A stretch of DNA of 64,000 nucleotides from Gaiellaceae bacterium (GCA_048594925.1 JBMDXR010000077.1:48315-112314); one strand, 5' to 3'; numbered from the stretch's first letter, positions 9,117 to 59,674 are shown. Numbers and translations are program-made. The notes: generated by a model not told the origin, from the letters alone.

Positions 9117-9127
9117 GGCCCGGAAAT

Positions 9128-10099: not shown

Positions 10100-10244
10100 C
10101 ACGCGCGCCCCCCGCTGGCGTCGGCTACCGCCGGGCCAAGCCTGGCTCCGCCGAAACCTGACGCCCATGAGAGCGCAGCTGAGCAATCATCGAACACGGG
10201 CGAAGAGAGTACTCAGAGGACTCGCAATCCACCCCGCTAAGGTC

Positions 10245-11432: not shown

Positions 11433-11464
11433 CTGGCGATCCGGCCGCGAAGCGGCCGCGTCAG
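11429..11464. terminator. GC-rich hairpin in a 28-nt convergent gap (possible bidirectional terminator)
   Basis: The inner stem CGGCCGC (11442..11448) pairs with GCGGCCG (11452..11458) around a GAA loop. The outer arms CTGAC (11429..11433) and GTCAG (11460..11464) include both stop codons. There is no U-tract. Confidence 0.35.
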
Positions 11465-14437: not shown

Positions 14438-14441
14438 GGGC

Positions 14442-16646: not shown

Positions 16647-16668
16647 GACGTCCCGTAGCCTACGGCGG

Positions 16669-18557: not shown

Positions 18558-18575
18558 CGACGAGCCTGCCCGGTC

Positions 18576-19577: not shown

Positions 19578-19592
19578 GACTGAAGCCGAACC

Positions 19593-27082: not shown

Positions 27083-27091
27083 GCGTCGTGC

Positions 27092-29250: not shown

Positions 29251-29261
29251 GCGCGTCGATG

Positions 29262-30143: not shown

Positions 30144-30155
30144 CGGTCGGCGAGC

Positions 30156-31127: not shown

Positions 31128-31161
31128 GGCACGAGACGCCTGGGTCGATCCTCGAGGCTGT

Positions 31162-32888: not shown

Positions 32889-32894
32889 CGCGAG

Positions 32895-33647: not shown

Positions 33648-33703
33648 CGAAGTCGAGAGCCTACCGCGCGAGCCGACCGCCTCAGGAAGTTACGCTCGAG
33701 ACA

Positions 33704-36294: not shown

Positions 36295-37890
36295 ATGGCC
36301 GCCCGAAGAGCGAACCGGCTCGCGCGCGTCCTCGCCTGGCTCGAGCGGCTCGCCTCGAGGCCCCTGGGGGCGGTCGTCCTCTTCGCGCTCGCCGTCGCGG
36401 TGTTCTCCGTCCGCGCTGCCGCCTGGCCGCTGCGCGCCGGGCGGGACCTGGACGAGTACCTGTACGCCTGGATCCAGCTGTTCGACCACGACGTCCTGCT
36501 TCCGTGGTCGATGCTCTTTCGAACCCCGGCCACGCCGATCGTGGCGGGAGGCTCGCTCGAACTCCTGGGAGGCGCCCTCGCGGAGCCGGTCTGCGCAGTT
36601 CTCTTCGCGCTGTCGGTGGTCTCATGGAGCGCCGCGGCGCACGCGTTCGGCCCGAGGGTCGCGCTCCTCACGGCCGTCGCGTTGCTCGTCTATCCGGGCT
36701 ACGGCCTCATGTTCCACGAGCTCGCGAGCGAGACCACCTTCGCGGCCTCCTTCGCGTTGTGGGCGCTGCTCGTCGTGCGTGCCGCCTTCCGGCCGAGCGT
36801 CGCGCGTTTCGCACTCGTCGGACTCGGGATCGCGCTGCTCGCGCTCGTACGTCCGGGCAACGCCGTCCTCCTCGCCTTCATCGCGCTTCCGTTCGTCGTC
36901 GCGGGGGCGTGGCGGGATCGGGTCCGATGGGCCGGAGCGCTCGCTCTCGCCGCCGTTCTTCCGCTTGCCGCGTGGACTCTTCACAACGGGCTGCGCCTCG
37001 ATACGTGGGCGCTCGCACGCGGCGGCAACGCGATCGTCCCCTTCTACCGCGCCTTCATCACCGACAACATCGTGTCCCCGGCGAACGGCGAGGAATCGAG
37101 GCGGCTCGCGGCCGCGATGCAACGACGGCTGCTGACGCGCGATCCGTACCGCTCGTACGGGGTCACCCTCGACGAGCTCTTCCGGGAGGGGAGCTTCCGC
37201 GTCCACGAGGACCTGTACATCCTCTCCGACCAGGTCTTCGGCTGGAACTCGGACTACCGCGTCCTTCGCGATGCCGGCGTGGAAGGCGTGCGCGCGCACC
37301 CCGGTACGTACGCCTCGGGAGTCCTCGGCACGATCTGGGACGAGCTGGCGAAGGCGCAGTTCCGCGCGGAGGGCGCGAGCCCAGCACCGAATGAGTCGCC
37401 ACGAGGCACGACGGGCGGATTGCCTCCACCGACCGAGGGCGAGCCGATACCCGCTGGTCAGGTCGTCTGGATCTCCCGACCCGACCAGAGCATCCGCCAG
37501 GTGTGGACCTCGGCGACCGACTGGCACTTCGAGTTCGACGACCCGAGCCAGCAAGTGCGCTTCCTGGAGATCGAGCGGGAGCGCGACGTTCTTCTCGACT
37601 CCCTCCCGGACCGCGCCGCGAATACAACGCTCGCGCTGCGGCTGAACCAGCTCTCACGCTGGTTCCCGCGGCCGTGGATGTGGATCCTCGCCGGAATCAT
37701 CGGCATCGCTTGGCGGCGTCCGCGCGGCTCCGCGACGCTCGCCGCGCTCGCGCTGGCCGGCATGGCGGTCGTCGTTCTCAATGCCCTCGGGCTCTTTGCC
37801 GATCTGCACTTCGTGCTCCCGGTCGCACCGGCGTTCGTTCTGCTCGGCGCCGGCGGGCTGCTCGGCGCTCGGGCAGGCGCACCTCGCTAG
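36295..37890 (+). CDS. GT-C-like polytopic membrane protein with extracytoplasmic domain (divergent paralogue 2)
   Basis: ATG 36295. The architecture and motifs match 34644..36257 (LVRPGNAVLL, YRSYGVTLDELF, VRAHPGTYASGV, C-terminal helix pair). Confidence 0.65.
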   Translation: MAARRANRLARVLAWLERLASRPLGAVVLFALAVAVFSVRAAAWPLRAGRDLDEYLYAWIQLFDHDVLLPWSMLFRTPATPIVAGGSLELLGGALAEPVCAVLFALSVVSWSAAAHAFGPRVALLTAVALLVYPGYGLMFHELASETTFAASFALWALLVVRAAFRPSVARFALVGLGIALLALVRPGNAVLLAFIALPFVVAGAWRDRVRWAGALALAAVLPLAAWTLHNGLRLDTWALARGGNAIVPFYRAFITDNIVSPANGEESRRLAAAMQRRLLTRDPYRSYGVTLDELFREGSFRVHEDLYILSDQVFGWNSDYRVLRDAGVEGVRAHPGTYASGVLGTIWDELAKAQFRAEGASPAPNESPRGTTGGLPPPTEGEPIPAGQVVWISRPDQSIRQVWTSATDWHFEFDDPSQQVRFLEIERERDVLLDSLPDRAANTTLALRLNQLSRWFPRPWMWILAGIIGIAWRRPRGSATLAALALAGMAVVVLNALGLFADLHFVLPVAPAFVLLGAGGLLGARAGAPR

Positions 37891-39254
37891 CCGACGATCT
37901 CGACGATCGCGTCGAGGACCCGCGCCGCCGCGCGACCGTCGACTTCCCCCACGACCTCGCGAGCGACACGCTGCCGCTCGCGCGCAAGCTCCGACGGCTG
38001 GGAGAGCGAGCGCTCCATGCCCGAGACGACCTCGTCGAAGTCCATGGCGCGGAGGAACGCCTCCGATCGGAGCAGCTCGTCGTAGTGCTTGCCGGTCACG
38101 TTCAGCGCCGCGTGCCGCTCGCCGGCCGGAGCTCCCTCGTCGTAGAGAACGCAGACCGCGGGCCGGTCGTTGACGATGCTGTCGAGGAGGATCGTGCCTG
38201 CGTTCGCAACGACGCAGTCGACGTGCTGGAGCAGCGTCGCGAGCACATCCATGTCGGTGTACGAGGGCTGCTGGACGCCGATGCCGTCGCCGGCCAGCGC
38301 CGCCCCGAAGCGATCCTTCCAGTCGCGATCGCGCGGATGCGGTCGGAAGAGGAGCTGCGGGCGCTCCGCGGGATCCTCCGCCCGCCACCACCCGACGAGC
38401 CGGTCGACGAACTTGCGCTCGTACGGCGCGTTCGTGGGCGTGTTTCCCGCCACGAGCACGACCGGCCGCGAGGGATCGAGCCCGAGCTCGCTCAGGATCG
38501 AAACGAATGCCTCGCGCGACCTCGAATGCGCGAAGACGTCGGTCTGCGGCCAGCCGGTGACGACGACCCGCTCGGCCCGGATCCCGTGGTAGCGGACGAG
38601 GTCGTCCCGCATCACGTCGTTCTGCACGACGTATCGGGTGACGTGCGGCGAGACGATCCCCTTCCCGACGGTGTGATCCCAGCTCGCGACATAGCCGACG
38701 ATCGGAACGTCGAGTCGACGAGCCGCAACGAGGAAGGGGACTGCCTGCAGGCTCTGGACGTTCGCCACGACGAGGCCGGCGCACGTCTCGCGCATGCGCC
38801 CGAGAAGCCTCTTCGAGACGTATCGCCTCCTCGAGAAGAGCCAGCGCCGAAGGAGCTCGTCCAGCCGCGCCGACTCGGGCAGTCGCCCCTTGAGAGACGA
38901 GTCCAGGAAGTGGTTCGGGTGCCCCGGGCGCATGCGCTCCCGATTGAAGCCGTGGCGAAGACTGTGACGGACCGACAGCGGGTAATAGCCTGCGTTCCGG
39001 TCGATGGCGAAGTCGATCCGTCGCTCGACGCGCTCGATCGGGCCGACCCGCCGGGGGAAGAGGTCGGAGCCGAGCGTCCACGGCAGGCCGTCGAGCTTCG
39101 GCACCCAGCTCCGAGCCTCGTCCTCCGGGAGCGCGAGCACGACCTCCACACGCCCGGGCGAGCGCTCGGCGAGCCCGGAGACGATTCCGCAGTCGACGAA
39201 GACACGCGTCGGGAAGGGATCGGGCAGGACGAGCCAGACGCCCCTCTCCATCAC
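37887..39254 (-). CDS. GT-B-fold transferase of unresolved family (distant TagF/capsule-synthesis-like layout)
   Basis: The start is GTG 39254 or ATG 39251, overlapping the transketolase stop. The ordered motifs VVLVAGNTPTNAPYE, LLFRPHPRD and VDCVVANAGTILLDSIVNDRPAV recall the PTW / HP / DYSS layout of glycerophosphotransferases. Sequence similarity is weak. Confidence 0.45.
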   Translation of the reverse strand: MMERGVWLVLPDPFPTRVFVDCGIVSGLAERSPGRVEVVLALPEDEARSWVPKLDGLPWTLGSDLFPRRVGPIERVERRIDFAIDRNAGYYPLSVRHSLRHGFNRERMRPGHPNHFLDSSLKGRLPESARLDELLRRWLFSRRRYVSKRLLGRMRETCAGLVVANVQSLQAVPFLVAARRLDVPIVGYVASWDHTVGKGIVSPHVTRYVVQNDVMRDDLVRYHGIRAERVVVTGWPQTDVFAHSRSREAFVSILSELGLDPSRPVVLVAGNTPTNAPYERKFVDRLVGWWRAEDPAERPQLLFRPHPRDRDWKDRFGAALAGDGIGVQQPSYTDMDVLATLLQHVDCVVANAGTILLDSIVNDRPAVCVLYDEGAPAGERHAALNVTGKHYDELLRSEAFLRAMDFDEVVSGMERSLSQPSELARERQRVAREVVGEVDGRAAARVLDAIVEIVG

Positions 39255-41206
39255 ACTGTCGCGCCGACCGGATGGGCGATCCGCTCGGCGAGGGACAGCC
39301 CGTCCAGACCGTGGGCCCGAAGCGCCTCGGATGGCGTCCCGCAGGCCGGCCAGCCGTCGACGCCGAACACGATCACGTCACGTCCGCCGAGCTCACGCCT
39401 GATCGCGTCGCCGAGACCACCCACAGGGGAGTGATCCTCGAGCACGAAGACGTGCTCGTACTCGGCGAGCTCCAGCAGCCAGGTCCGGTCGAAGCGGTTC
39501 AGCCAGGGCATGTTCACGACCGCGAGCTCGGGCCCGCGCTCGGCCAGATGCTCCGCTGCCGTGAGCGCCTCGTGCAGCATCACGGGCCCGTACGCGACGA
39601 GGACGGCATCCCCTCCGTCGCGCAGCAAGCGCCCTCGGCCCGGCGCGATCTCACCCTGGAGGTCGATCCGCCGGGGCGACGGGCCGATCGCGAGCCGGAT
39701 CGCGCCGTTCCCGCTCGCGTCCTCGACCGCCCAGCGCACCAGTGCGCGGGTCTCCTCCGAGTTGCCGGGCTGCACGATCGTCGTGTCCGGAAGCGCACCG
39801 AGCAGCGAGATGTCGCGGACCGACTGGTGCGATTTTCCGGGCCCCGCCGGGATCAAGCCCGCGTAGTGGAGCGCGTACACGACCTTCGAGCCCTCGGTCG
39901 CCTGGTTGTAGATCTGCTCGTTCGCCCGCGACGCGAGGAACGAGGCGAACGAGTTGACGACCGGCAGCAGGCCGTGCCGTGCCACTCCCGCGGCGGTCGA
40001 GACCATGTCCTGCTCGGCGATGCCGCACTCGACGAACCGGTCGGGGAAGGCGAGGGCAAACCCGCGCACGCGACAGTCGGAGGCGAGATCGGCGTCGAGC
40101 ACGACGAGGTCGTCCCGCTCGGCGCCCAGGCGGACGAGCTCCTCACCGTACGCGTCGACGACGTACTCGTCGGTGACCTGTGCGCGGCGCGCCCCCGCGC
40201 CTGACTCGGGCTCGCCCCCCGGCGACCGGGTCGCTCGCTCCTCCGGCTCGATCGGCTCGATCGGCTCGAGCACGAGTGGGTCGAGGCCGTGCGCGGAGAG
40301 ACGCTCGCCGAGTCGTTCCGCAATCTCGGAGACCGCCTCCTCGAAGGACTCGTCGTCGGGGGCGCCCGCGTGCCACCGATACGTCCCGCCTCCGACTCGC
40401 AAGGCGACCGGATGCTCCATGAAGGAGACGCCCTTCCCCTTGATCGTGTTGGCGACGAGCACCTGCGGCCGGCCGCTCACCTCGCGGAACGCCGCGAACG
40501 TGGAGCGAAGCGCGCCGAAGTCGTGCCCGTCGCAGGATGTCACGTACCAGCCGAAGGCGCGGAATCGCTCCTCGAGCTCGCCGAGCGAGACGATCTCCTC
40601 TGTCGGCATGTCGGACTGGAGCTCGTTGCGGTCGACGACGACCGCGAGCCCCGTGAGCCCTTCATGCGCGGCAGCCTGCAGCCCCTCGTAGTTCTGCCCT
40701 TCCTGCAGCTCGCCGTCGCCGACCATCACGACGACGCGACCGCCGCGACCGAGATGCCGCTTCGCCCAGGCGATCCCGCGTCCCTTGGAGACGCCCATCC
40801 CGAGCGAGCCCGAGCTGGCCTCGATGCCCGGCACGCCGACGTCCGGGTGACCGTCGAGCCCTCCGAGCCGACGCAGACGGACGAAGCGCTCACGAGGGAT
40901 GACGCCGAGCGCGAACAACGCGGCGTAGAGCCCGGGGACGTCGTGCCCCTTGGAGGAGAAGTAGACGTCCCGATCCGGATCGTCCCATCCGAGCCTCGCA
41001 GTGTTCAGCTCCTCGAAGAGCAGGAAGGTCACGATGTCCATCGCGCTGAAGCTCGAACCGAGATGGCCGGAGCCCGCGCGCTTGACGGCGACGAGCGCGT
41101 TCAGGCGGCACATGTCTGCAAGCAACGCGAGACGTTCGTCCGGCTCCAGGGCGGCGTGGTGAACGCGATCGAGCTCTGCTCTCGGAACCAGGTGCAGATC
41201 GGGCAT
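39251..41206 (-). CDS. transketolase-family ThDP enzyme, N-terminal and C-terminal halves fused in one polypeptide
   Basis: Internal ATG 41206. The N-half carries GSGHLGSSFS and GDGELQEGQNYE. The linker is LEPIEPIEPEE. The C-half carries GIAEQDMVSTAAG and the transketolase C-terminal pattern. Confidence 0.85.
   Translation of the reverse strand: MPDLHLVPRAELDRVHHAALEPDERLALLADMCRLNALVAVKRAGSGHLGSSFSAMDIVTFLLFEELNTARLGWDDPDRDVYFSSKGHDVPGLYAALFALGVIPRERFVRLRRLGGLDGHPDVGVPGIEASSGSLGMGVSKGRGIAWAKRHLGRGGRVVVMVGDGELQEGQNYEGLQAAAHEGLTGLAVVVDRNELQSDMPTEEIVSLGELEERFRAFGWYVTSCDGHDFGALRSTFAAFREVSGRPQVLVANTIKGKGVSFMEHPVALRVGGGTYRWHAGAPDDESFEEAVSEIAERLGERLSAHGLDPLVLEPIEPIEPEERATRSPGGEPESGAGARRAQVTDEYVVDAYGEELVRLGAERDDLVVLDADLASDCRVRGFALAFPDRFVECGIAEQDMVSTAAGVARHGLLPVVNSFASFLASRANEQIYNQATEGSKVVYALHYAGLIPAGPGKSHQSVRDISLLGALPDTTIVQPGNSEETRALVRWAVEDASGNGAIRLAIGPSPRRIDLQGEIAPGRGRLLRDGGDAVLVAYGPVMLHEALTAAEHLAERGPELAVVNMPWLNRFDRTWLLELAEYEHVFVLEDHSPVGGLGDAIRRELGGRDVIVFGVDGWPACGTPSEALRAHGLDGLSLAERIAHPVGATV
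40244..40269. repeat. in-frame 9-bp tandem repeat (CGGCTCGAT, about 2.9 copies) encoding the EPI-EPI-EPE linker of the fused transketolase
   Basis: Read directly: cggctcgat cggctcgat cggctcga at 40244..40269. Confidence 0.7.
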
Positions 41207-42083: not shown

Positions 42084-44573
42084 GTGGCCGCCTCGGCTCC
42101 TCCTCGTCCTCGTCGCGCGAATCCCGGAACTTTCGCCGGGCTCTTCCTCGTCACGCTCTCGACCCTCATGTACGAGGTCGTCCTGACGCGGATCTTCAGC
42201 GTGACCATGTGGTACCACTTCGCGTTCGTCGCGATCTCGGTCGCGCTCTTCGGGCTCACGGCTGGCGCGCTCATCGTCCACCTCCAGCCCGGCCGCTTTC
42301 GGGACGGTGACGTGCCCGCGAGGCTCTGGCTCTTCTCGCTGCTCTTCAGCCTCGCGATCGCGATCTGCTTCGTGACGCAGCTCGCGATCCCCTTCGACCC
42401 CGAGCTGAACGTCGCAAGCGCCTGGTCGATCGTGCTCACGTGCCTGGTCATCTCGATCCCGTTCGTGTGCAGCGGAGTCGTCGTCTGCCTTGCGCTGACC
42501 CGCTTCCCGGCACAGACGAACCGGCTCTACGCAGCCGATCTGGTCGGTGCAGCTCTCGGCTGCATCCTCGTCGTGGCTCTGTTCGTCGTGCTGGACGGGC
42601 CAAGCCTCGTCATCGCGATCGGAGCGATCGCGGCGCTGGGCGCGCTCTTCTTCGCATTCGAGGCGGCCAGCCGACGCGGATTCGCCTTGGCACTGTCACT
42701 CGCAGTCGTGCTCGGCTCGGCCGCCGCCGTGAACGGCGTCCTCCACTCGAAGGGTCACCCGCTCCTGCGAATCGTCTGGGCCAAGGGTGAGCCCGACTTC
42801 CAGCACGACTTCGAGAAGTGGAATGCGTTCTCGCGCGTGACCGTCGACCGGTGGGGGGACGGCCTCACCGGCCCCTCCGGCGTCGGGATGAGCAGGACGA
42901 TCCCATCCGACACGCGCGTCGAGCAGCTCGGGATGGTGATCGACAGCAATGCGGCCACCGTCCTGACCCGCTACACCGGCGACCCGTCCGAGACGGACTT
43001 CCTGCGCTACGACATCTCGAACCTCGCACATCACGCCCTCGAGGCTGCGGACGTCCTCGTGATCGGCGTGGGGGGAGGCCGCGACGTGCTCTCGGCGCTC
43101 GAGTTCGACCAGAAGTCCGTCACCGGGGTCGAGATCAACGGGAACATCCTCGACACGACCAACGGCGAGTACGGCGCCTTCACCGGCCACCTCGACCGGA
43201 ACCCGCGCGTCAGGTTCGTCGAGGACGAGGCGCGCAGCTACCTCGCGCGCAGCGACGACACCTACGACCTCATCCAGATCTCGCTGATCGACACGTGGGC
43301 CGCGTCGTCCGCGGGCGCGTACGCGCTGACGGAGAACTCGCTGTACACGACCAGGGCTTGGGACGTCTTCCTCGACCGGCTCGCGCCGGGCGGGATGCTG
43401 TCCGTCTCGCGCTGGTACACGATCCCCGGACGCGAGCGGCCCCTCGAGGCCTACCGAGCCGTCGCGCTCGCTGCGACGGTGCTGATGGGGCGAGGAGCGG
43501 CCGATCCACGCGCGCACCTCCTCGTCTACCGCTCGGACCCGAACGGCGCCGGGGCGAGCGCGATGACGTTGCTCGTGAGCCCGGAGCCGTTCTCGGCCAC
43601 GACCCTCGCCGCGATCTCCGGCGCGGCGGCGCGGCTCGGTTTCACGCCGGTGCTCACGCCCGACGCCGCGATCGACGAGCACTTCGCGGCTCTCGCCTCG
43701 CCCAACGGGCCGGGGGAAGCTATCGCGTCGTTCGACGCCGACATCTCCGCGCCGACCGACGATCGGCCGTTCTTCTTCCAGATGGCCGACCTCGGAACCG
43801 TCTTCGGAGGCGCAGGCTTCTCGAGGGACGACTCGACCCGTCCGGTGCTCGTCCTGACCCTCCTCGCCGTCGCGATCCTCGGGATGACGCTGGGCTTCAT
43901 CGTCCTTCCGCTCCTCTTCAAGACCGGCGCCGCGGCGCATCGCGGTATGGCGCCCTTCTACTCGTACTTCGCCGGGATCGGGCTCGGGTTCCTCCTGATC
44001 GAGATCGCCCAGCTGCAGCGGCTGAGCATCTTCCTCGGGCACCCGACGTACGCGTTGACGGTCGTACTCTTCTCGCTCCTCGTGTCGAGCGGGATCGGGA
44101 GCATGGTCAGCGACCGCATCGCCGATCCACGCCGCCCCACGCGGGCCCTCGCGCCGCTCGGCGCCCTCGTCGTGACGGTGGCCGCGTTCGGGGTACTGAC
44201 TCCGGAGATCATCGAGCGGCTGGACGGGGCGACCACACCCGTACGCATCACGACGGCCGTCGCGATCCTTGTGCCGTGCGGCCTGCTCATGGGCACGGCG
44301 TTCCCCATCGGTATGCGGGCCGCAGCGGCGAGGCCCGGCGCCCCGACGGCATTTCTGTGGGGCATCAACGGCGCGACCTCGGTCTGCGCGTCGGTCTTCG
44401 GCGTCGCCATCGCGATCTTCTTCGGGATCTCGGTCTCGTACTTCGTCGGCGTTGGCGCGTACGCGTTCGCCGCAGTGGCGCTGGTCGTCATCGTCCGGTT
44501 GCAGCTGCGAGCGGCCGCGAGCGAGAGTCCCGACGAAGAGGACGCCCCGGCGCCCGTGCCCGCGGCGGCCTAG
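42084..44573 (+). CDS. fused polytopic-membrane / spermidine-synthase-like protein
   Basis: GTG 42084, 829 aa. The N-terminal helices begin LMYEVVLTRIFSVTMWYHFAFVAISVALFGLTAGA. A central Rossmann module follows (VLVIGVGGGRDVLSAL, LIQISLIDTW, LAPGGMLSVSRW). About 6 more helices lie at the C-terminus. Confidence 0.75.
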   Translation: MAASAPPRPRRANPGTFAGLFLVTLSTLMYEVVLTRIFSVTMWYHFAFVAISVALFGLTAGALIVHLQPGRFRDGDVPARLWLFSLLFSLAIAICFVTQLAIPFDPELNVASAWSIVLTCLVISIPFVCSGVVVCLALTRFPAQTNRLYAADLVGAALGCILVVALFVVLDGPSLVIAIGAIAALGALFFAFEAASRRGFALALSLAVVLGSAAAVNGVLHSKGHPLLRIVWAKGEPDFQHDFEKWNAFSRVTVDRWGDGLTGPSGVGMSRTIPSDTRVEQLGMVIDSNAATVLTRYTGDPSETDFLRYDISNLAHHALEAADVLVIGVGGGRDVLSALEFDQKSVTGVEINGNILDTTNGEYGAFTGHLDRNPRVRFVEDEARSYLARSDDTYDLIQISLIDTWAASSAGAYALTENSLYTTRAWDVFLDRLAPGGMLSVSRWYTIPGRERPLEAYRAVALAATVLMGRGAADPRAHLLVYRSDPNGAGASAMTLLVSPEPFSATTLAAISGAAARLGFTPVLTPDAAIDEHFAALASPNGPGEAIASFDADISAPTDDRPFFFQMADLGTVFGGAGFSRDDSTRPVLVLTLLAVAILGMTLGFIVLPLLFKTGAAAHRGMAPFYSYFAGIGLGFLLIEIAQLQRLSIFLGHPTYALTVVLFSLLVSSGIGSMVSDRIADPRRPTRALAPLGALVVTVAAFGVLTPEIIERLDGATTPVRITTAVAILVPCGLLMGTAFPIGMRAAAARPGAPTAFLWGINGATSVCASVFGVAIAIFFGISVSYFVGVGAYAFAAVALVVIVRLQLRAAASESPDEEDAPAPVPAAA

Positions 44574-45739
44574 GCCGTCGGCCAGGGGTGCTCGCGCAGG
44601 ACGTCCTCGTTCAGCTCGACGCCCCAACCCGGTCCAGCGGGGACGCGCAGCTCGCCTGCGGAGATCTGCGGTAGCGCGGTGACGAGCTCGTCGCGCCAGG
44701 GCACGTCGTCGACGTCGTACTCGAGAAAGCGCGCGTTCGGGATCGCCGCGCACCACTGGGCCCCGATGAACGTGGCCAGGTGGCTGTAGTAGTTGTGCGG
44801 AGCGCAGTTCACCTCGTAGGTCTCCGCGAGGTCGGCGATCTTCTTCGCCTGGTGGAAGCCGTTCCAGATCACGTCCACCGAGGCCACGTCCATGCCGGCC
44901 GCCTCGAAGAAGGGGCGGAAGTCGCGGCTCGAGTACAGGTTCTCGCCTGAGCAGATCGGCATCGGTGCGACGTGGCGAACGTGCGCGAGCGCACCGGCGT
45001 CGAAGAGGTCGACCTCGAGCCAGAGGAGATCGAACGGCTCGAGCGCCTTCGCGACGCGCACGCACCCCTCGGGCTCGAGGTTGAAGTTGAGGTCGACGAT
45101 CGGCCGTGCGGCGCCCCGCGCGCCTTCGGCGAACGCCTCGAGGAGCCGCACGAGCGCGTCGGTGATCTCCTCCGTCCGGAGCGTGCCGCCGCCCTCGTTG
45201 AACCCGGGCATGAGTACCCTCGGCTCGTCCCCCGGCACGACGACGTTGGTCTTGAACGCGCCGTAGCCCTGCTCGACCACCTCACGCCCGAGCGCGGCGA
45301 CGTCGTCGTACGAGGCGAGCTTAGGCGTACCAGTGACCTCGAACGCGCGCGCGCGCGTCGTGCCGCAGTGCGACCAGTACATCGGGATCGCCTCACGGGT
45401 CGGCCCGCCGAACAGCTCGTACACCGGCACCCCGAGAGCCTTCGCCTTGACGTCGAGCAGCGCGTTCTCGATGCCCGCGAGGGCCTTGGCGATGACCGAG
45501 CCCGGGCTCTGCCGGGTGGCCCGGTAGAGATCCCAGAAGATCGCCTCGACCGGTCGTGGGTCACGACCGACGACAAGCGGTGCGAGATCCTCCACGATGC
45601 CCGCGAGCCCACGGGGCGACCCGTGCGAGTCCGTGATCTCGGCCCAGCCGACGAGGCCGTCGTCGGTCGCGGCCTTCACGAAGATCCACGGCCGCCAGCC
45701 GGCGTCGCAGTAGAGCGTCTCGAGGGCGGCAAGCTTCAC
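44570..45739 (-). CDS. enolase-superfamily (mandelate racemase/muconate lactonizing enzyme family) putative acid-sugar dehydratase
   Basis: GTG 45739 lies in a GTGA overlap. Motifs are WIFVKAATDDGLVGWAEI and KAKALGVPVYELFGG, and the layout is a TIM barrel. The ORF-track N-terminus is a run-through. Confidence 0.85.
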   Translation of the reverse strand: MKLAALETLYCDAGWRPWIFVKAATDDGLVGWAEITDSHGSPRGLAGIVEDLAPLVVGRDPRPVEAIFWDLYRATRQSPGSVIAKALAGIENALLDVKAKALGVPVYELFGGPTREAIPMYWSHCGTTRARAFEVTGTPKLASYDDVAALGREVVEQGYGAFKTNVVVPGDEPRVLMPGFNEGGGTLRTEEITDALVRLLEAFAEGARGAARPIVDLNFNLEPEGCVRVAKALEPFDLLWLEVDLFDAGALAHVRHVAPMPICSGENLYSSRDFRPFFEAAGMDVASVDVIWNGFHQAKKIADLAETYEVNCAPHNYYSHLATFIGAQWCAAIPNARFLEYDVDDVPWRDELVTALPQISAGELRVPAGPGWGVELNEDVLREHPWPTA

Positions 45740-46491
45740 GAGGCGGGAGCATACGGCGGTCGTCCGACCTCCGGCAGCACCCCCTCGCCGCTCGCGACGA
45801 GACGCTCCGCCCGCGCCCAGTCCTCCTCGTCGTCGACGTTGAATCCCTCGAGGCCCTGCGTGAGGAAGGGCCCGACGACGTTCCCCTCGCGCGTTCCCGT
45901 CTCCGTGACGACGCGCATCCACGCGATCTCGAGCGCGCTGTTCTGGACGTAGACCGGCGGCAGCGCCTGGTACTGGCCAGCGTGCCAGGTGACCTGCAGG
46001 TGCGACTGGTCGAGGAGCGGGCGCATCGTCAGCCCGTCTGCCGAGAGCAGCCACATCTTCCCCGGGTGTTGCTTCACCAACTCGACCGCGCGGAGCGAAT
46101 CCGCCTCGGGCGTCGCAAGCAGCTGGTCGAAGCCTCGCCTGATCACGCCAGGACCACGGAAAGGGTTGGTGGCCCGGATGAGCGCGAACAGCTCGTACCG
46201 CTCCGGCAGATGCTCGACGGTGTATGCGAGCCACTCGATGTCCGGCGAGGTCGACGTCGCAAACTCGGCCGGCCGGAGAAACGGGACGTCCGCGCCGTAC
46301 CAGCGAGCGACCTCTGCGATCTCCTCGGAGTCGGTCGAGACGACCACGCGCTCGAAGCAGCCACTCTGTCGCGCTGCCTCGATGGCGTATGCCAGCAGCG
46401 GATGGCCTGCGAGCGGGCGCACGTTCTTGTGCGGAACCCGCTCCGACCCGGAGCGCGCCGGGACGAAGCCGACCGCAGAGGGCCCGGTCAC
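45736..46491 (-). CDS. acylneuraminate cytidylyltransferase-family (CTP_transf_3) CMP-sugar synthetase
   Basis: GTG 46491 lies in a GTGA overlap. Motifs are VPARSGSERVPHKNVRPLAGHPLLAYAI and VVVSTDSEEIAEVARWYGADVPFLRP. Confidence 0.85.
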   Translation of the reverse strand: MTGPSAVGFVPARSGSERVPHKNVRPLAGHPLLAYAIEAARQSGCFERVVVSTDSEEIAEVARWYGADVPFLRPAEFATSTSPDIEWLAYTVEHLPERYELFALIRATNPFRGPGVIRRGFDQLLATPEADSLRAVELVKQHPGKMWLLSADGLTMRPLLDQSHLQVTWHAGQYQALPPVYVQNSALEIAWMRVVTETGTREGNVVGPFLTQGLEGFNVDDEEDWARAERLVASGEGVLPEVGRPPYAPAS

Positions 46492-47378
46492 TGGAGCCCG
46501 GCGGCGACCGCGAGCTCGGTCAGCGCTGGGCAGGGAACTCCGGCCCGCTCCGCGACTCGCAGGACCCCGCCGACGATCGCGTCGAGCTCCGAGCGTCGCC
46601 CGGCAACGACGTCCCTCGCCGCCGACGTGGTCGTCTCGTCGGCCATCTGGTCGATGATCGCCCACTGCGCCGCAGGGCGCAGCGGAACGCCGTCGGCTTC
46701 CGCAACGGCGCAGGCCTCGGCGATCGCGCTGTCGAGCCGGGGGCGCCAGGTCCGGTCGTTGCGCAACTCGCCGACCGTCCGCCCGGAGGCAGACGTCGCC
46801 GCGGCGAGTGGGGCGATCCGCGCGAGCTTGTGCCAGAGCACCCGGCGCTCGTTCTGGCCGATGCGAACGTCGATCCTCGCACGTCGCAGGAGGTCGGCCG
46901 CGTGCTCGACCTCGGTGCGGGAGAGCGTCTCCGATGCGATCGTGATCACTGGAGCGGTCGTCGCCTCGACGATCTGGACGCGCCCGGCACGATAGGCCTG
47001 GAAGTGGGAGATGCTTCCGGCGGCCACGCGACCGTCGAAGCGTACCCTCAGGGCGTCCATGTGCTCGAGGCCGTTCAGGAGCGGGACGACGACACCGTCG
47101 GCCACCGCCTCCGGGGTCACGCGCTCCATCGCGTCCGCCAGCGCGGGCGCCTTCACCGTCACGAGGAGGAGGTCGACCGGTCTGGCGAGCCGCTCGGCGA
47201 CCTCAACCCGAGCCGTGAGCGTCCCCTCCTTCGACTCGACGACCAGCCCCGCGAGCGCGATGAGCCCGGCCGCCTCCGGGTGCGCGACGCAGACGACGCG
47301 CACGCCTGCGTTCGAGAGCCGGACGGCGAGCGTTCCGCCGACCGCGCCGGGGCCGAGGACTGCGACGGTGTCGTTCAT
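46488..47378 (-). CDS. ketopantoate reductase (ApbA/PanE)-family oxidoreductase
   Basis: ATG 47378 lies in an ATGA overlap. The VAVLGPGAVGGTLAVRL Rossmann motif is present and the 296-aa length is typical of the family. Confidence 0.75.
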   Translation of the reverse strand: MNDTVAVLGPGAVGGTLAVRLSNAGVRVVCVAHPEAAGLIALAGLVVESKEGTLTARVEVAERLARPVDLLLVTVKAPALADAMERVTPEAVADGVVVPLLNGLEHMDALRVRFDGRVAAGSISHFQAYRAGRVQIVEATTAPVITIASETLSRTEVEHAADLLRRARIDVRIGQNERRVLWHKLARIAPLAAATSASGRTVGELRNDRTWRPRLDSAIAEACAVAEADGVPLRPAAQWAIIDQMADETTTSAARDVVAGRRSELDAIVGGVLRVAERAGVPCPALTELAVAAGLQ

Positions 47379-48802
47379 GTCTTCGTGGGATCGACGACGA
47401 GGTTGACGACCTTCTGATCGGAGTACACGTCGAGGGACTCGATCCCTGCCTCCCTCCAGCCGGTTCCCGAGTCCTTGACACCGCCGAAGCCCATGTGCGG
47501 CTCGGAGCCGTGCGTGCCGGCGTTCACGACCACGACACCAGCGTGCACTCGCTCGGCGAAGTGCATGGCCCGATGCACGCTCCCGGTGTGAATCGCGGCC
47601 GTGAGACCGTACGGCGAGTCGTTCACGAGCGCGATCGCATCGTCGAGGCCCGCGGTGCGATAGAGCACCGTCACGGGCCCGAACAGCTCGCTGCGTGAGA
47701 TCTCGTCCTCGGCTGGAGTTCCCTCGAGGACGGTCGGCGCCACGTGCCAGCCGGGACGCTCGAGCCGCTCACCTCCGGTGAGCACCGTCGCTCCACGCGC
47801 CCTTGCGTCAGCGACGGCGGCGAGGATCCGCTCCATGCTCTCGCGGCTGATGACCGGCTGCGATTCGACCTCGCCTGCCGCCTCGACGAGGCGCGCGCGG
47901 AAGTCGTCGTAGACCGCGTCCGCTGCGACGATCCTGCTTGCGGACGCGCATCGCTGCCCCGCGTTGGAGAAGGCGGACGCGAGCGCCCAGTGCACGGCAC
48001 GATCGAGGTCCGCGTCGTCACATACGACCAGCGCGTTCTTGCCGCCGAGCTCGAGGCAGGTCTTCGCGAGTCGCCGAGCCGCCACCTCGTTGATCGCGCG
48101 TCCGGTCGCGGCCGAGCCCGTGAAGCTGACGAGATCGACGTCGGCATGCCCGACGAGCGCTGCTCCCGCCTCGCCCCCCAGCCCGTGAACGACGTTGAGC
48201 ACTCCCGCGGGAACGCCCGCCGCGAGCGCGAGCTCGGCAAAGAACGACGCTGAGACGGGCACGTGCTCGGACGGCTTCACCACCGCCGCGTTCCCGCAGA
48301 AGATCGCCGGGAACGCCTTCCAGGCGATGTTGGGAAGCGGCGTGTTGAAGCTCATGATCAGGGCCGCGACGCCAAGTGGCTGACGCAGCGTGAGGACCGT
48401 CCGGTGCGCCATGCTCGCCGTCGTCGTCCGCCCGTATGAGCGCCGGCCCTCGCCAGCGATGAACAGGCCCATCTCGACGGCCGCGTCGGTCTCGCCGAGA
48501 GCGAGCTCCAGCGACTTGCCCGTCTCCTCGACCACGATCGCCGATGCCTCCTCTCGTCGCTCGCGCAGGAGCAGCGCAAGGTCACGGACGACGTCGCCCC
48601 GCGAGACCGCGGTCCGCTCGGCCCACTCGGGCTGCGCCGACCGTGCAGCTGCGACCGCCCCAGCGACATCTTCCGCTCCCGAGCGGGCGATCATGCACAG
48701 GAGCGTCTCGTCGGCTGGCCGAAGCTTCTCGAGCCACGCCCCGGAGTGCGGCGGAGCCGCCGTGCCGCCTATGAGGTTGGGAACCTCCTCGGGTGTCACC
48801 AC
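47375..48802 (-). CDS. NAD(P)-dependent aldehyde dehydrogenase
   Basis: The start is GTG 48802 or 48799. Motifs: FTGSAATGRAI, ELGGKNALVV (catalytic Glu) and NAGQRCASASR (catalytic Cys). Confidence 0.9.
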   Translation of the reverse strand: MVTPEEVPNLIGGTAAPPHSGAWLEKLRPADETLLCMIARSGAEDVAGAVAAARSAQPEWAERTAVSRGDVVRDLALLLRERREEASAIVVEETGKSLELALGETDAAVEMGLFIAGEGRRSYGRTTTASMAHRTVLTLRQPLGVAALIMSFNTPLPNIAWKAFPAIFCGNAAVVKPSEHVPVSASFFAELALAAGVPAGVLNVVHGLGGEAGAALVGHADVDLVSFTGSAATGRAINEVAARRLAKTCLELGGKNALVVCDDADLDRAVHWALASAFSNAGQRCASASRIVAADAVYDDFRARLVEAAGEVESQPVISRESMERILAAVADARARGATVLTGGERLERPGWHVAPTVLEGTPAEDEISRSELFGPVTVLYRTAGLDDAIALVNDSPYGLTAAIHTGSVHRAMHFAERVHAGVVVVNAGTHGSEPHMGFGGVKDSGTGWREAGIESLDVYSDQKVVNLVVDPTKT

Positions 48803-49581
48803 GCGGACCAGCCGCCGTCGACGACGACGTTCGAGCCCGTGACGTACGACGAGGCGTCGGAGGCGAGGAAGACGACGGCGCCGAGCGCCTCGCGCGCGTC
48901 CAGCATTCGCCCCATCGGCGCCCGCGCCGCATACGCGTCGAGAAACTCCTGCGCCTGGTCGTTCCAGACGCCCGAGAGCGTGAGCGTGTTCACGCGAACT
49001 CCGGCTTTCGCCCAGTACGTCGCCAGATAGCGCGTGAGGTTGAGGACGGCAGACTTCGAGACCGAGTACGCGACGGGCTTCACGAAGGTCTCGCCACGCT
49101 CGCGACGGAACGCGTAGAGATCCTGTACCGGGGACAGCAGGCCGTAGACGGACGAGATGTTCACGATCGAGCCACGGCCTGCCTTCGCCATCGCCCCGCC
49201 CACCGCCTGGCAGCAGAGGAACGTCCCCTTCACGTTGACGTCCATCACCTCGTCGAAGGACGCCTCGGGATACTCCTCGAACGGACCGACCTCCTCCGCG
49301 GGCGCATCAGGGGGTGAGTCGAGGCCGGCGTTGTTGATCAGCACGTGCGGAACGCCCCACTCCTGCACGACCTCCTCGAGTGCCCGCGCGACCGCGGTGC
49401 GGTCGGTGACGTCGACCTCGTAGGCACGGACGCCGTCGGGAAGGTCGCCCGACGCGACGTCGAAGCTCGCGACGCGCATGCCGCGCTCTGCGAGTCCGCC
49501 CGCGTACACCTGTCCCAGCTGGCCCATGGCGCCCGTGACGATCGCCACGCGACCGCTCAGATCGAACAGCGGATCGCTCAC
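48796..49581 (-). CDS. short-chain dehydrogenase/reductase (classical SDR)
   Basis: GTG 49581 lies in a GTGA overlap. Motifs: VAIVTGAMGQLG, NNAG and YSVSKSAV (YxxxK). Confidence 0.9.
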   Translation of the reverse strand: MSDPLFDLSGRVAIVTGAMGQLGQVYAGGLAERGMRVASFDVASGDLPDGVRAYEVDVTDRTAVARALEEVVQEWGVPHVLINNAGLDSPPDAPAEEVGPFEEYPEASFDEVMDVNVKGTFLCCQAVGGAMAKAGRGSIVNISSVYGLLSPVQDLYAFRRERGETFVKPVAYSVSKSAVLNLTRYLATYWAKAGVRVNTLTLSGVWNDQAQEFLDAYAARAPMGRMLDAREALGAVVFLASDASSYVTGSNVVVDGGWSAW

Positions 49582-50660
49582 GCTTCGCGAGCAGCGACCG
49601 CCTGTCCCGCGGGCACCAGGTCGTCGAGAGCGACGGCCTGCTCCGCGGCCAGCGGCCGTGCGAGCGTGCGCCCGAGCAAGCCGTCGAGCTCGTAGGGCGG
49701 CAGGCCGCCGTCCGCGGGTGACTTCGCGACCAGGTCCCCCGGAGCGAGGACGTGCCCGGCCCGAAGTTCTCGAGCCGCGACGAGCTGCTTGCCCATCTTC
49801 TGCAGCGGCCGCTCCTCGCTCGGCAGGCGGCGCTTGACGCCGTCACCGAGCGCTGCGGGCACGCGCTGGAGATCGCGGACGAAGCGTCGCATGCCGTCCG
49901 GCATCAGCGAGTAGGCGTGGTCCGTGCCCCTCCATGCGTGATTGAGCGTGAAGTGCTTCTCGAACACGCGCGCGCCGAGCATGAAAGCCACCGGCGCCAT
50001 CGCGATCCCGTTGTGGTGGTCGGAGAGACCGATGACGAGATCGGGATAGCGCTCTCGCAGCGTCGCGATGACCGAGAGGTTCAGATCCTCGACCTCGGCC
50101 GGGTACGAGGCGGTGCAGTGGAGGACCGCCAGCTGGGGGTTCGTCGATGCGGTCGCCTCAACGGCGCGGTCGATGTCCTCGATCGTCCCGCCGCCCGTGG
50201 AGAGGAACATGGGCTTGCCGAGCGCGGCGACGTACCGAAGAAACGGCACGTTCACGAGGTCACCGGACGCGAACTTGAACGCGTCGACGCCGAGCTCGGC
50301 GAGGAAGTCGGCGCTCGGCTCGTCGAAGGCCGCCGCGACGAAGGCGACGCCTTCCTCCCGCGCGTACTGGCTGAGCTCGAACCAGTCGGCCTTGGGCAGC
50401 TCGAGCGCCTCGCGATGCTCGCCGTACGTGGCGCCGAAGCTGTTCTCGTTGTCGTACGGCGAGTCGTAGAACGCGCGCGTGAAGAGCACGCGGTTGTCGC
50501 GCTTCTGGAACTTGACCGCGTCCACACCGCAGTCCCGCGCGGCGTGGATGAGCGCCTTCGCCTTCTCGACGTCGCCCTGATGGTTGTGCCCTATCTCCGC
50601 GATGACGTACGCCGCGCCGTCCCGCGTGATGGTCCTGCCGTCGACGACGAGCTCTGGCAC
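49578..50660 (-). CDS. NeuB-family 3-deoxy-2-ulosonic (sialic/Kdn-type) acid synthase with C-terminal SAF domain
   Basis: GTG 50660. Motifs: VIAEIGHNHQGD, AVKFQKR, SFGATYGEHREALEL, LHCTASYP and GLSDHHNG. The SAF-like tail is GKQLVAARELRAGHVLAPGDL. Confidence 0.9.
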   Translation of the reverse strand: MPELVVDGRTITRDGAAYVIAEIGHNHQGDVEKAKALIHAARDCGVDAVKFQKRDNRVLFTRAFYDSPYDNENSFGATYGEHREALELPKADWFELSQYAREEGVAFVAAAFDEPSADFLAELGVDAFKFASGDLVNVPFLRYVAALGKPMFLSTGGGTIEDIDRAVEATASTNPQLAVLHCTASYPAEVEDLNLSVIATLRERYPDLVIGLSDHHNGIAMAPVAFMLGARVFEKHFTLNHAWRGTDHAYSLMPDGMRRFVRDLQRVPAALGDGVKRRLPSEERPLQKMGKQLVAARELRAGHVLAPGDLVAKSPADGGLPPYELDGLLGRTLARPLAAEQAVALDDLVPAGQAVAAREA

Positions 50661-59650: not shown

Positions 59651-59674
59651 GGCAGCAAAGGGTAGACGGGTGGC

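What the first reader, a model, noticed from the sequence alone, without database searches (positions are those of the whole stretch)
39251..41206. Fused two-half transketolase embedded in, and translationally coupled to, glycan-assembly genes
Seen in the sequence: one 651-aa ORF carries the ThDP-binding N-terminal half (GSGHLGSSFS, GDGELQEG) and the pyrimidine-binding/C-terminal half. They are joined by a Pro/Glu-rich linker.

The stop overlaps the start of a GT-B transferase (GTGA/ATG at 39251-39254). The start lies 14 nt after a methyltransferase-fold gene.

Established knowledge: this short transketolase type is commonly encoded as two separate subunit genes. ThDP enzymes in sugar clusters are known to attach two-carbon branches or extend carbon chains; yersiniose-type and avilamycin-type branched sugars are examples with other ThDP families.

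Inference: this transketolase may build a branched-chain or chain-extended sugar, or supply an unusual ketose or aldose phosphate to the neighbouring NeuB-type operon. A role in central metabolism seems less likely.
Basis: partly seen in the sequence, partly recalled or inferred. Interest (0 to 1): 0.65.

Follow-up and report, generated by a model that had tools for sequence, protein, structure and literature searches.

The report
Non-phosphate transketolase in NeuB sugar cluster
The gene is real, but it is not an ordinary transketolase: it belongs to a large, uncharacterised, multi-phylum family that has lost every residue that binds sugar phosphates and that almost always sits next to genes for sialic-acid-like (NeuB/CMP) acidic sugars, so it most likely tailors such a sugar for a cell-surface glycan.

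Summary
The 651-aa ORF (39251-41206, minus strand) is confirmed, along with its motifs, its 14-nt gap after a methyltransferase gene and its stop/start overlap with a TagF-like GT-B gene. Being single-chain is not special. The whole family is single-chain, as is human transketolase, the closest solved structure.

Two other results matter more.

1. Across 78 relatives from more than 10 phyla, the cofactor and catalytic residues are invariant. All four canonical sugar-phosphate binders (E. coli R358, S385, H461, R520) and the stereo-selecting Asp469 are replaced, by V/I, D, Y/L, I/S and P.

2. The gene is syntenic with NeuB, an SDR, an aldehyde dehydrogenase, a CMP-transferase and often a KdsC-like phosphatase. 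In Bacteroidota a class-III aminotransferase replaces the aldehyde dehydrogenase. This points to an aldehyde intermediate.

An engineered E. coli TktA carrying R358I/H461S/R520Q cleaves 5-keto-gluconate to an aldehyde-acid. That is a direct precedent.

Best reading: a dedicated C2-ketol-cleaving enzyme that acts on a non-phosphorylated, SDR-oxidised sugar acid within a CMP-ulosonic acid pathway. The order of steps and the product are inferred. A housekeeping role is very unlikely, but a second tkt in the genome could not be checked. No literature on this pathway was found.

The parts
39251..41206 (-). Transketolase-like ThDP enzyme, 651 aa. Cofactor and catalytic residues are kept. The sugar-phosphate pocket is replaced (V350, D377, Y448, P456, I507; family-specific K458 and R464).
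37887..39254 (-). TagF-like (Glyphos_transf, GT-B) transferase, translationally coupled to the transketolase-like gene. It is the putative transferase or polymerase for the CMP-activated sugar (inferred).
   Evidence: the same adjacency is seen in L001 and L002
41221..42006 (-). SAM methyltransferase-fold gene (Methyltransf_23), 14 nt upstream of the transketolase-like gene. It is conserved at this position in Gaiellales.
42084..44573 (+). 829-aa protein of unknown function on the opposite strand, with no family match above a curated threshold. It splits the cluster into two transcription units here, as it does in L001 and L006. It is absent in L002, where the cluster is one co-directional operon.
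44570..45739 (-). Enolase-superfamily acid-sugar dehydratase (MR_MLE). A Gaiellales-specific addition to the cluster.
45736..46491 (-). CMP-ulosonate cytidylyltransferase (a NeuA/PseF/KdsB relative by PDB and NCBIfam; its orthologues in L001/L002 carry Pfam CTP_transf_3).
   Evidence: orthologues
46488..47378 (-). ApbA/PanE-type 2-ketoacid reductase. A Gaiellales-specific addition to the cluster.
47375..48802 (-). Aldehyde dehydrogenase. Its best solved relative is E. coli succinate-semialdehyde dehydrogenase.
48796..49581 (-). Classical SDR. Its best NCBIfam match is the gluconate 5-dehydrogenase subfamily, below the cut-off.
49578..50660 (-). NeuB-family ulosonic acid synthase with a SAF domain. 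It scores below both the NeuB and the PseI equivalog cut-offs.

Best explanation
The gene encodes an active ThDP enzyme of the short (mammalian or split-type) transketolase lineage. It has been re-tooled for a non-phosphorylated substrate and works as a dedicated step in making a CMP-activated, NeuB-derived acidic sugar for a surface glycan.

The most likely sequence of steps is:
1. The NeuB-like synthase condenses PEP with a common aldose (phosphate).
2. In many relatives a KdsC-like phosphatase then removes the terminal phosphate.
3. The SDR oxidises the penultimate carbon of the sugar-acid tail, creating a HOCH2-CO-CHOH- ketol.
4. The transketolase-like enzyme clips off that two-carbon ketol and leaves a new terminal aldehyde.
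5. The aldehyde dehydrogenase oxidises the aldehyde to a carboxylate, giving a shortened 3-deoxy-ulosaric (dicarboxylic) acid. In Bacteroidota a class-III aminotransferase makes the omega-amine instead.
6. The cytidylyltransferase makes the CMP-sugar.
7. The coupled TagF-like protein installs it.

In Gaiellales, the enolase-type dehydratase, the ApbA reductase and the methyltransferase would further tailor the new alpha-hydroxy-acid end.

Shown: gene content, synteny, residue changes. Inferred: substrate, order of steps, product.
For: (1) Family-wide residue pattern. In 78 sequences, H48, H88, H120, D164, N194, H279, E398 and H460 are invariant or nearly so. The equivalents of E. coli R358, S385, H461, D469 and R520 are V/I, D (77/78), Y/L, P (76/78) and I/S. 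The same result comes from HMMER alignments to human TKT and to the bona fide split TK 6yaj.

(2) Motif typing of 73 well-aligned full-length 50%-identity cluster representatives (of 77 aligned): 44 carry this signature and 15 carry the canonical R/S/H/D/R set. An NJ tree separates the two groups even with the signature columns removed, with 25/40 bootstraps.

(3) Synteny. Of 47 species-level loci with at least 8 kb on both sides, 36 have NeuB or CTP_transf_3 within 10 kb. In distant phyla (TK below 63% identity) the counts are NeuB 19/22, SDR 20/22, CTP-transferase 15/22, Aldedh 13/22 and KdsC-like HAD 13/22. Compact operons of the form NeuB-HAD-SDR-Aldedh-CTPt-TK exist, for example L071.

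(4) In four Bacteroidota loci a class-III aminotransferase directly follows the TK and replaces the Aldedh. This implies an aldehyde intermediate.

(5) Precedent: E. coli TktA R358I/H461S/R520Q gains activity cleaving 5-keto-D-gluconate to tartaric semialdehyde (PMC12016104). The dehydrogenase, then TK, then semialdehyde-dehydrogenase logic has been proposed for tartrate (PMC7970118).

(6) Partner enzymes fit the scheme. The SDR's best NCBIfam hit is gluconate 5-dehydrogenase. The Aldedh's best PDB hit is succinate-semialdehyde dehydrogenase. The HAD matches the KdsC / KDN-9-P phosphatase family.

(7) The gene scores below all NCBIfam transketolase and DXS cut-offs. The whole 64-kb window contains glycan genes and no pentose-phosphate genes.
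Against: There is no biochemical evidence, and no paper on this family was found. The order of steps is inferred from chemistry alone. The KdsC-like phosphatase is absent from this window. The C2 acceptor is unknown. Partner-enzyme matches are all below equivalog cut-offs and are generic for their superfamilies. Bootstrap support for the clade is moderate (25/40). The AlphaFold model is poor (pLDDT 65.8, active-site loops below 50), so pocket geometry was not examined. In Streptomyces sp. NBC_01237 the NeuB-SDR-TK trio sits in a secondary-metabolite-like cluster without a CMP-transferase, so the module is not restricted to glycans. The AHBA pathway (from memory) is a precedent for the rival ordering, with the transketolase acting before the PEP-condensing enzyme.
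Confidence: 0.5

Rival explanations
1. Precursor supply before NeuB. The SDR plus the aldehyde dehydrogenase or aminotransferase first convert the far end of a common ketose into a carboxylate or an amine. The transketolase-like enzyme then cleaves that ketose to a short aldehyde-acid or amino-aldehyde. NeuB condenses this product with PEP, for example a C4 aldehyde-acid plus PEP giving a 3-deoxy-heptulosaric acid.
For: The same residue changes and the same synteny apply. The engineered-TktA precedent yields exactly such a C4 aldehyde-acid. The rifamycin AHBA pathway uses oxidoreductase, aminotransferase, phosphatase and transketolase ahead of a PEP-condensing synthase (established knowledge, from memory). 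The Streptomyces locus has NeuB-SDR-TK-reductase-HAD-aminotransferase.
Against: The KdsC/KDN-9-P-type phosphatase often sits next to NeuB (for example directly after it in L071 and L002) and occurs in 20/47 loci. This argues that NeuB's product carries a terminal phosphate, so its substrate is an ordinary aldose phosphate rather than a TK-made acid or amine. This ordering also needs the SDR to oxidise a primary alcohol, which is less typical of classical SDRs of the gluconate-5-dehydrogenase type.
Confidence: 0.22
2. Chain extension or branching. The enzyme adds a two-carbon ketol (from hydroxypyruvate or a ketose) to an aldehyde on the sugar, making a longer or branched acidic sugar.
For: Transketolase reactions are reversible. 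The histidines that handle the ketol are kept.
Against: After a C2 addition there is no aldehyde left for the conserved aldehyde dehydrogenase. The Aldedh/aminotransferase swap is best explained by an aldehyde that lies downstream of the C-C step. No donor-supplying gene is conserved in the clusters.
Confidence: 0.1
3. DXS-like or alpha-keto-acid decarboxylase chemistry. The enzyme decarboxylates the 2-keto acid made by NeuB (or pyruvate or hydroxypyruvate) and releases or ligates the resulting aldehyde, which is then oxidised or transaminated.
For: There are partial DXS matches (TIGR00204, 171 bits over the C-terminal half). DXS structures rank just behind human TK in Foldseek. Decarboxylase followed by an aldehyde dehydrogenase or aminotransferase is a known pattern, for example in phosphonate pathways (from memory).
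Against: The protein is closer to transketolase than to DXS over its full length. Destroying the 2-keto-acid function would leave the conserved CMP-ulosonate cytidylyltransferase without a substrate. The DXS GAP-binding Arg and Asp equivalents are also lost.
Confidence: 0.08
4. An ordinary housekeeping transketolase of the pentose-phosphate pathway that happens to lie in a glycan island.
For: Sources annotate the relatives as 'transketolase'. Cofactor and catalytic residues are intact. Whether a second tkt exists in this genome was not testable.
Against: All phosphate-binding residues and Asp469 are replaced family-wide. It scores below NCBIfam cut-offs. The linkage to NeuB clusters is conserved in more than 10 phyla. 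No PPP neighbours are present.
Confidence: 0.03

Closest known systems
Human transketolase (PDB 4KXU/3MOS) and the short bacterial single-chain transketolases (NCBIfam NF004559/NF004556)
   Same: Same three-domain, single-chain architecture of about 620-650 aa with a short N-terminal domain. It is the best sequence match (E 4e-62, full length) and the best fold match. The ThDP/metal motif, the cofactor-activating Glu and the active-site histidines are conserved.
   Different: R318, S345, H416, D424 and R474 (human numbering) are all replaced. The score is 389.7 bits against a cut-off of 488 for NF004559. The genomic context is a glycan cluster, not the PPP.
Split-gene transketolase of Carboxydothermus hydrogenoformans (PDB 6YAK/6YAJ)
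   Same: It is the closest bacterial solved relative for each half taken separately (E 7e-51 and 5e-46; 7e-47 for the C-terminal half).
   Different: It is encoded as two genes and keeps the canonical S / H / GEDG / LGR substrate residues. This family is never split in the loci examined.
Engineered E. coli TktA R358I/H461S/R520Q acting on 5-keto-D-gluconate (PMC12016104, citing Wang et al. 2022), and the proposed TK step of tartaric acid biosynthesis (PMC7970118)
   Same: The same three phosphate-binding positions are made non-basic. The proposed chemistry is the same: a keto sugar acid is cleaved to an aldehyde-acid plus a C2 unit, followed by a semialdehyde dehydrogenase.
   Different: That enzyme is a laboratory variant of a long-type TK. 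Here the changes are natural, family-wide and accompanied by further changes (Ser to Asp, Asp to Pro, Glu to Arg), and the substrate is presumed to be a NeuB-type sugar acid.
NeuB / KdsC-type phosphatase / CMP-synthetase pathways (Kdn in Bacteroides thetaiotaomicron; Neu5Ac, Pse and Leg pathways) and Kdo8N tail modification in Shewanella (established knowledge, from memory)
   Same: A NeuB-family synthase, a KDN-9-P/KdsC-like phosphatase (in relatives) and a CTP_transf_3 cytidylyltransferase are present. Oxidising the tail and then transaminating it resembles Kdo8N formation.
   Different: No known ulosonic acid pathway contains a ThDP enzyme. NeuB and the cytidylyltransferase score below all equivalog cut-offs. 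No aminotransferases or acetyltransferases of the Pse or Leg routes are present.
Transketolase (Rif-Orf15) of the AHBA/rifamycin pathway (from memory)
   Same: It is a pathway-dedicated transketolase encoded in a biosynthetic cluster, together with an oxidoreductase, an aminotransferase, a phosphatase and a PEP-condensing synthase.
   Different: Orf15 is a canonical long-type TK that acts on phosphorylated amino sugars, and its partner is a DAHP-synthase homologue rather than NeuB.

Membership tests
Transketolase, EC 2.2.1.1 (housekeeping) | PP, Pyr and C-terminal domains in that order | tested here: met
   Pfam finds Transketolase_N, Transket_pyr and Transketolase_C. The alignment to human TKT is full length.
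Transketolase, EC 2.2.1.1 (housekeeping) | ThDP/Mg motif GDG...N, cofactor-activating Glu, active-site histidines (E. coli H26, H66, H100, H261, H473) | tested here: met
   H48, H88, H120, D164, N194, H279, E398 and H460 are invariant or nearly so (at least 77 of 78) in the 78 family members.
Transketolase, EC 2.2.1.1 (housekeeping) | Sugar-phosphate binding residues (E. coli R358, S385, H461, R520) | tested here: not met
   They are replaced by V350, D377, Y448 and I507 in the window protein, and by V/I, D, Y/L and I/S across the family.
Transketolase, EC 2.2.1.1 (housekeeping) | Asp469 (yeast Asp477), which reads the D-threo hydroxyl | tested here: not met
   It is Pro in 76/78 sequences; the motif AGPGKSHQ replaces GEDGPTHQ.
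Transketolase, EC 2.2.1.1 (housekeeping) | Passes a curated equivalog score | tested here: not met
   NF004559 scores 389.7 against 488, NF004556 279.7 against 575, and TIGR00232 137 against 682.
Transketolase, EC 2.2.1.1 (housekeeping) | It is the organism's only or main transketolase, with pentose-phosphate neighbours | not testable with these tools
   Only 64 kb of the genome is visible, and no PPP genes lie in it. The rest of the genome could not be scanned.
Split (two-gene) short transketolase | N- and C-terminal halves encoded by separate genes | tested here: not met
   It is a single ORF here and in all 82 related loci.
1-deoxy-D-xylulose-5-phosphate synthase | Passes the DXS equivalog score; GAP-binding Arg and Asp residues | tested here: not met
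   TIGR00204 scores 171 against 466. The equivalent Arg and Asp positions are replaced.
NeuB-type CMP-ulosonic acid biosynthesis cluster | NeuB-family synthase and CTP_transf_3 cytidylyltransferase in one operon | tested here: met
   The genes lie at window 49578-50660 and 45736-46491, in a run of six genes with overlaps of 4-7 nt.
NeuB-type CMP-ulosonic acid biosynthesis cluster | Membership of a characterised subfamily (Neu5Ac, Pse, Leg, Kdn) | tested here: not met
   NeuB_NnaB scores 287 against 400, PseI 210 against 340, and PseF 129 against 206.
NeuB-type CMP-ulosonic acid biosynthesis cluster | KdsC/KDN-9-P-type phosphatase | tested here: inconclusive
   It is absent from the window. It is present in 20/47 related loci and matches the KdsC/KDN-9-P models below their cut-offs.
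TagF-like glycerophosphotransferase (downstream gene) | Pfam Glyphos_transf above the gathering score | tested here: met
   It scores 34.6 bits against 22.1. The donor substrate is unknown.

The most novel reading that the evidence does not exclude
This family is a natural 'ulosonic-acid-trimming' (or aldehyde-acid-forming) transketolase. It defines a widespread and so far undescribed route to C(n-2) dicarboxylic or omega-amino 3-deoxy-ulosonic acids, for example 3-deoxy-heptulosaric acids of the Dha type. The biosynthesis of Dha and its activated form are still listed as unknown in plants (PMC12168206, PMC3355719).
Probability: 0.3. Interest if true: 0.85.

Novelty: new variant of a known kind. 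Interest (0 to 1): 0.7.

Why it matters
If this reading is right, a ThDP-dependent C-C cleavage step belongs to the repertoire of sialic-acid-like sugar biosynthesis. A family now annotated simply as 'transketolase' would need re-annotation. It accounts for 44 of the 73 closest well-aligned 50%-identity representatives, and 7,928 proteins matched at E<=1e-20 among the candidates scored. It occurs in Gaiellales, Anaerolineae, Bacteroidota, Nitrospirota, Gammaproteobacteria, candidate-phyla-radiation (CPR) bacteria, Melainabacteria, Chlorobium and Streptomyces.

It would also point to an unknown acidic sugar on the surface of very abundant soil Actinomycetota. It offers a natural scaffold for transketolases that accept non-phosphorylated sugar acids, a property that enzyme engineers have had to evolve. 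And it gives a concrete candidate chemistry for heptulosaric-acid-type sugars whose biosynthesis is still unknown.

Tried and rejected
(1) 'Fusion of two halves' as the point of interest was rejected. Single-chain is the rule for the family and for human TKT.

The result was pLDDT 65.8 and pTM 0.51, with active-site loops and the linker below 50. Foldseek finds human TK and then DXS, but with an rmsd of 12-19 Å. This is inconclusive. By homology to human TKT the active sites should lie at the dimer interface.

(3) Literature searches returned nothing relevant: transketolase with nonulosonic, NeuB, cytidylyltransferase or sialic acid synthase, and Gaiella occulta with transketolase.

(4) A search for a second, canonical tkt in the same genome was not possible.

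(5) A midpoint-rooted tree gave a meaningless root inside the family, and a first bootstrap script timed out. Both were replaced by an unrooted split test.

(6) The class-III aminotransferase in the window (59675-61330) was considered as a cluster member and rejected. It sits with the haem genes hemY and hemH and is presumably HemL.

(7) Dha itself as the product was checked on paper. Its D-lyxo configuration does not follow simply from trimming Kdn or Kdo, so no specific product is claimed.


Full report
OBSERVATION

The minus-strand ORF 39251..41206 encodes 651 aa. It starts at an ATG preceded by GAGGGG. Its codon-position GC (0.76/0.48/0.86) is typical of real genes in this roughly 70% GC window. 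Pfam finds Transketolase_N (aa 29-260, only profile positions 5-249 of 334, which is the 'short' type), Transket_pyr and Transketolase_C.

The upstream Methyltransf_23 gene stops 14 nt before the start codon. The TGA stop overlaps the GTG/ATG start of the next ORF, which passes Pfam's threshold for the TagF-like Glyphos_transf family.

WHAT KIND OF TRANSKETOLASE

The closest solved structures are human transketolase (E 4e-62, full length) and the two chains of the split transketolase of Carboxydothermus hydrogenoformans. But single-chain proteins of this type are common: human TKT, and two NCBIfam 'transketolase' models of 627 and 639 positions that align end to end. Every one of the thousands of relatives found is single-chain. 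The linker is simply a variable inter-domain segment of 43-68 aa in the family, against 50 in human TKT. The protein scores below the curated cut-offs of all transketolase and DXS models.

THE ACTIVE SITE IS REMODELLED

I aligned 78 family members from 82 loci with human TKT and E. coli TktA. I checked the result against HMMER alignments to human TKT and to the C-terminal chain of the split TK.

Residues that hold ThDP and the metal and that perform catalysis are invariant or nearly so. In window numbering these are H48, H88, H120, D164, N194, H279, E398 and H460. They correspond to human H37, H77, H110, D155, N185, H258, E366 and Q428 (yeast H481).

The residues known from TK-substrate structures to bind the sugar phosphate are replaced throughout the family. 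In E. coli numbering these are R358, S385, H461 and R520 (established knowledge).
- R358 becomes V or I.
- S385 becomes D (77/78).
- H461 becomes Y or L.
- R520 becomes I or S.
- The Asp that reads the D-threo hydroxyl (E. coli D469) becomes P (76/78).
- A Glu in the canonical 'HQxxE' motif becomes Arg ('SHQSVRDIS').

A search of 1.84 billion cluster representatives gave 1,465 hits below 1e-30. Of the 73 well-aligned full-length representatives (77 were aligned), 44 carry this signature, down to 32% identity. Another 15 carry the canonical R/S/H/D/R set. Seven form a third variant with Trp at the first His. An NJ tree built without the signature columns still separates the signature group from the others, with moderate support of 25/40 bootstraps.

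GENOMIC CONTEXT

In the window, six genes run with overlaps of 4-7 nt from 50660 down to 44570: NeuB, SDR, aldehyde dehydrogenase, ApbA-type reductase, CMP-cytidylyltransferase and enolase-superfamily dehydratase. An 829-aa gene on the other strand follows. Then come the methyltransferase, the TK-like gene and the TagF-like gene.

In a related 650-kb metagenomic contig the opposite-strand gene is missing and everything forms one co-directional operon. In another contig the arrangement matches the window.

A scan of one genome per species returned 80 loci, all from MAGs except Gaiellaceae bacterium isolate SLM_LV1_BS-B14 (L006) and Chlorobium sp. KB01. Tblastn with the window's proteins, and with their homologues from a distant locus, gave the following for the 47 loci that have at least 8 kb on both sides.
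- NeuB or the cytidylyltransferase lies within 10 kb in 36 loci.
- In the 22 loci whose TK is below 63% identical, NeuB is present in 19, the SDR in 20, the cytidylyltransferase in 15, the aldehyde dehydrogenase in 13 and a KdsC-like HAD phosphatase in 13. These loci come from Anaerolineae, Bacteroidota, Nitrospirota, Gammaproteobacteria, Saccharibacteria and other CPR, Melainabacteria, Gemmatimonadota, Myxococcota and Chlorobium.
- ApbA, the enolase-type dehydratase and the Methyltransf_23 gene are Gaiellales-specific (0/22 in distant loci). The TagF-like gene is largely so (4/22).

A compact example is L071: Capsule_synth-like transferase, TylF-type methyltransferase, NeuB, HAD, SDR, Aldedh, CTP_transf_3, TK. 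Other neighbours are methyltransferases, glycosyltransferases and unknown proteins. No sugar isomerase or other precursor-supply gene recurs.

The whole 64-kb window up to about 59.2 kb is a glycan island, with GT2, GT4, Wzy-like proteins, GDP-mannose dehydratase, epimerases and methyltransferases. It contains no pentose-phosphate genes.

A TELLING SUBSTITUTION

In four Bacteroidota loci the order is TagF-like, cytidylyltransferase, TK, class-III aminotransferase, SDR, HAD, NeuB. The aminotransferase is of the glutamate-semialdehyde-aminomutase type. The aldehyde dehydrogenase is missing.

An aldehyde dehydrogenase and an omega-aminotransferase are alternative consumers of an aldehyde. The pathway therefore passes through an aldehyde that becomes either a carboxylate or an amine.

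MECHANISM (INFERENCE)

A transketolase cleaving a ketol HOCH2-CO-CHOH-R releases the aldehyde R-CHO. A classical SDR of the sugar-acid type can create such a ketol by oxidising the penultimate carbon of a sugar-acid tail. The best NCBIfam match of the SDR here is the gluconate 5-dehydrogenase subfamily, below the cut-off. The aldehyde dehydrogenase's closest solved relative is succinate-semialdehyde dehydrogenase.

This three-step logic has been proposed for tartaric acid formation from 5-keto-D-gluconate (PMC7970118). E. coli TktA carrying R358I/H461S/R520Q is reported to have enhanced activity in cleaving 5-keto-gluconate to tartaric semialdehyde (PMC12016104). Those are the same three positions that are non-basic in this family.

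The KdsC/KDN-9-P-type phosphatase, which often sits next to NeuB in relatives (directly after it in L071 and L002), suggests that NeuB makes an omega-phosphorylated ulosonic acid from an ordinary aldose phosphate. I therefore favour the following order: NeuB, then phosphatase, SDR, TK-like C2 clipping, oxidation or amination, CMP activation, and transfer by the coupled GT-B protein. TagF-type enzymes, like sialyltransferases, use donors with a CMP leaving group (established knowledge).

In Gaiellales the enolase-type dehydratase and the ApbA reductase act on alpha-hydroxy and alpha-keto acids respectively. This fits a newly created carboxylate end.

The main rival places the TK before NeuB, where it would make a short aldehyde-acid or amino-aldehyde that NeuB condenses with PEP. 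The AHBA pathway is a precedent for that ordering (from memory). Chain extension, DXS-like decarboxylation and a housekeeping role are less consistent with the data. The Rival explanations section gives the detail.

COMPARISON AND NOVELTY

The protein works like a transketolase and belongs to the transketolase superfamily. It fails the tests that define the housekeeping enzyme: phosphate pocket, Asp469, curated scores and context. It is not a DXS and it is not split.

The NeuB, cytidylyltransferase and phosphatase genes resemble the known Kdn, Neu5Ac and Pse systems but fall below every equivalog cut-off. No paper linking a transketolase to NeuB-type pathways was found.

I class it as a new variant of a known kind: a known fold and known chemistry recruited into an undescribed, widely distributed sugar-acid pathway.

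LIMITS

- There is no biochemistry.
- The product is unknown.
- The phosphatase is absent from this window.
- The structural model is poor.
- A second tkt in the genome was not testable.
- The loci are one per species but are not phylogenetically independent.

Noticed in passing
L084 (Streptomyces sp. NBC_01237, NZ_CP108509.1) 2711-20990: A culturable Streptomyces carries NeuB-SDR-TK-like (44.5% identity) followed by an RmlD-like reductase, a HAD and a class-III aminotransferase. This lies next to hydroxyphenylglycine-type genes (HmaS-like dioxygenase, FMN dehydrogenase, aminotransferase), an AMP-binding enzyme, an O-methyltransferase, a P450 and a LuxR regulator. No CMP-transferase was found. 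The trio therefore also occurs in what looks like a secondary-metabolite cluster.
   Followed up: partly
proteins P0196, P0200, P0205, P0220, P0232, P0236, P0238: A third group of short transketolase-like proteins has Trp in place of the first active-site His and Tyr in place of the His461 equivalent, but mostly keeps Asp469 and Arg520. This may be another uncharacterised specialisation.
   Followed up: no
window 34644-36257 (-), 36295-37890 (+), 50698-52305 (-): Three paralogous proteins of about 530 aa. One has a weak PMT_2 (GT-C-like) match and the others have no family match. Homologues recur beside the cluster in most Gaiellales loci.
   Followed up: partly
window 42084-44573 (+): An 829-aa gene of unknown function lies on the opposite strand, with no family match above a curated threshold. 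It is convergent with the dehydratase gene (4-nt overlap) and divergent from the methyltransferase gene (78-bp gap), and it splits the cluster. The same gene is found at the same place in L001 and L006, and it is absent in L002.
   Followed up: partly
window, whole; L001, L002, L033, L071 and other loci: The KdsC-like HAD phosphatase lies next to or near NeuB in 20 of 47 related loci. It has no homologue anywhere in this 64-kb window, where NeuB and the SDR overlap directly.
   Followed up: yes
L039, L040, L045, L050, about 8100-15600: In the Bacteroidota version of the cluster a class-III aminotransferase immediately after the TK-like gene replaces the aldehyde dehydrogenase, and NeuB lacks the SAF domain (296 aa).
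   Followed up: yes
window 59243-63976 (-): The glycan island ends at about 59.2 kb. Beyond it lie a PIN-domain gene, a class-III aminotransferase (presumably hemL), an amine-oxidase-fold protein (protoporphyrinogen-oxidase-like) and ferrochelatase, which together form a haem biosynthesis block.
   Followed up: partly
window 26000-34000: GC content dips to 0.656-0.674, against about 0.70 elsewhere. The region holds GT2_4/GT92-like transferases, a PIG-L deacetylase and two methyltransferases. It may be a more recently acquired or variable part of the glycan island.
   Followed up: no
window 9128-10186 (-): A PylC-like / ATP-grasp ligase gene lies among the glycosyltransferases. This could mean amidation or amino-acid decoration of an acidic sugar.
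   Followed up: no
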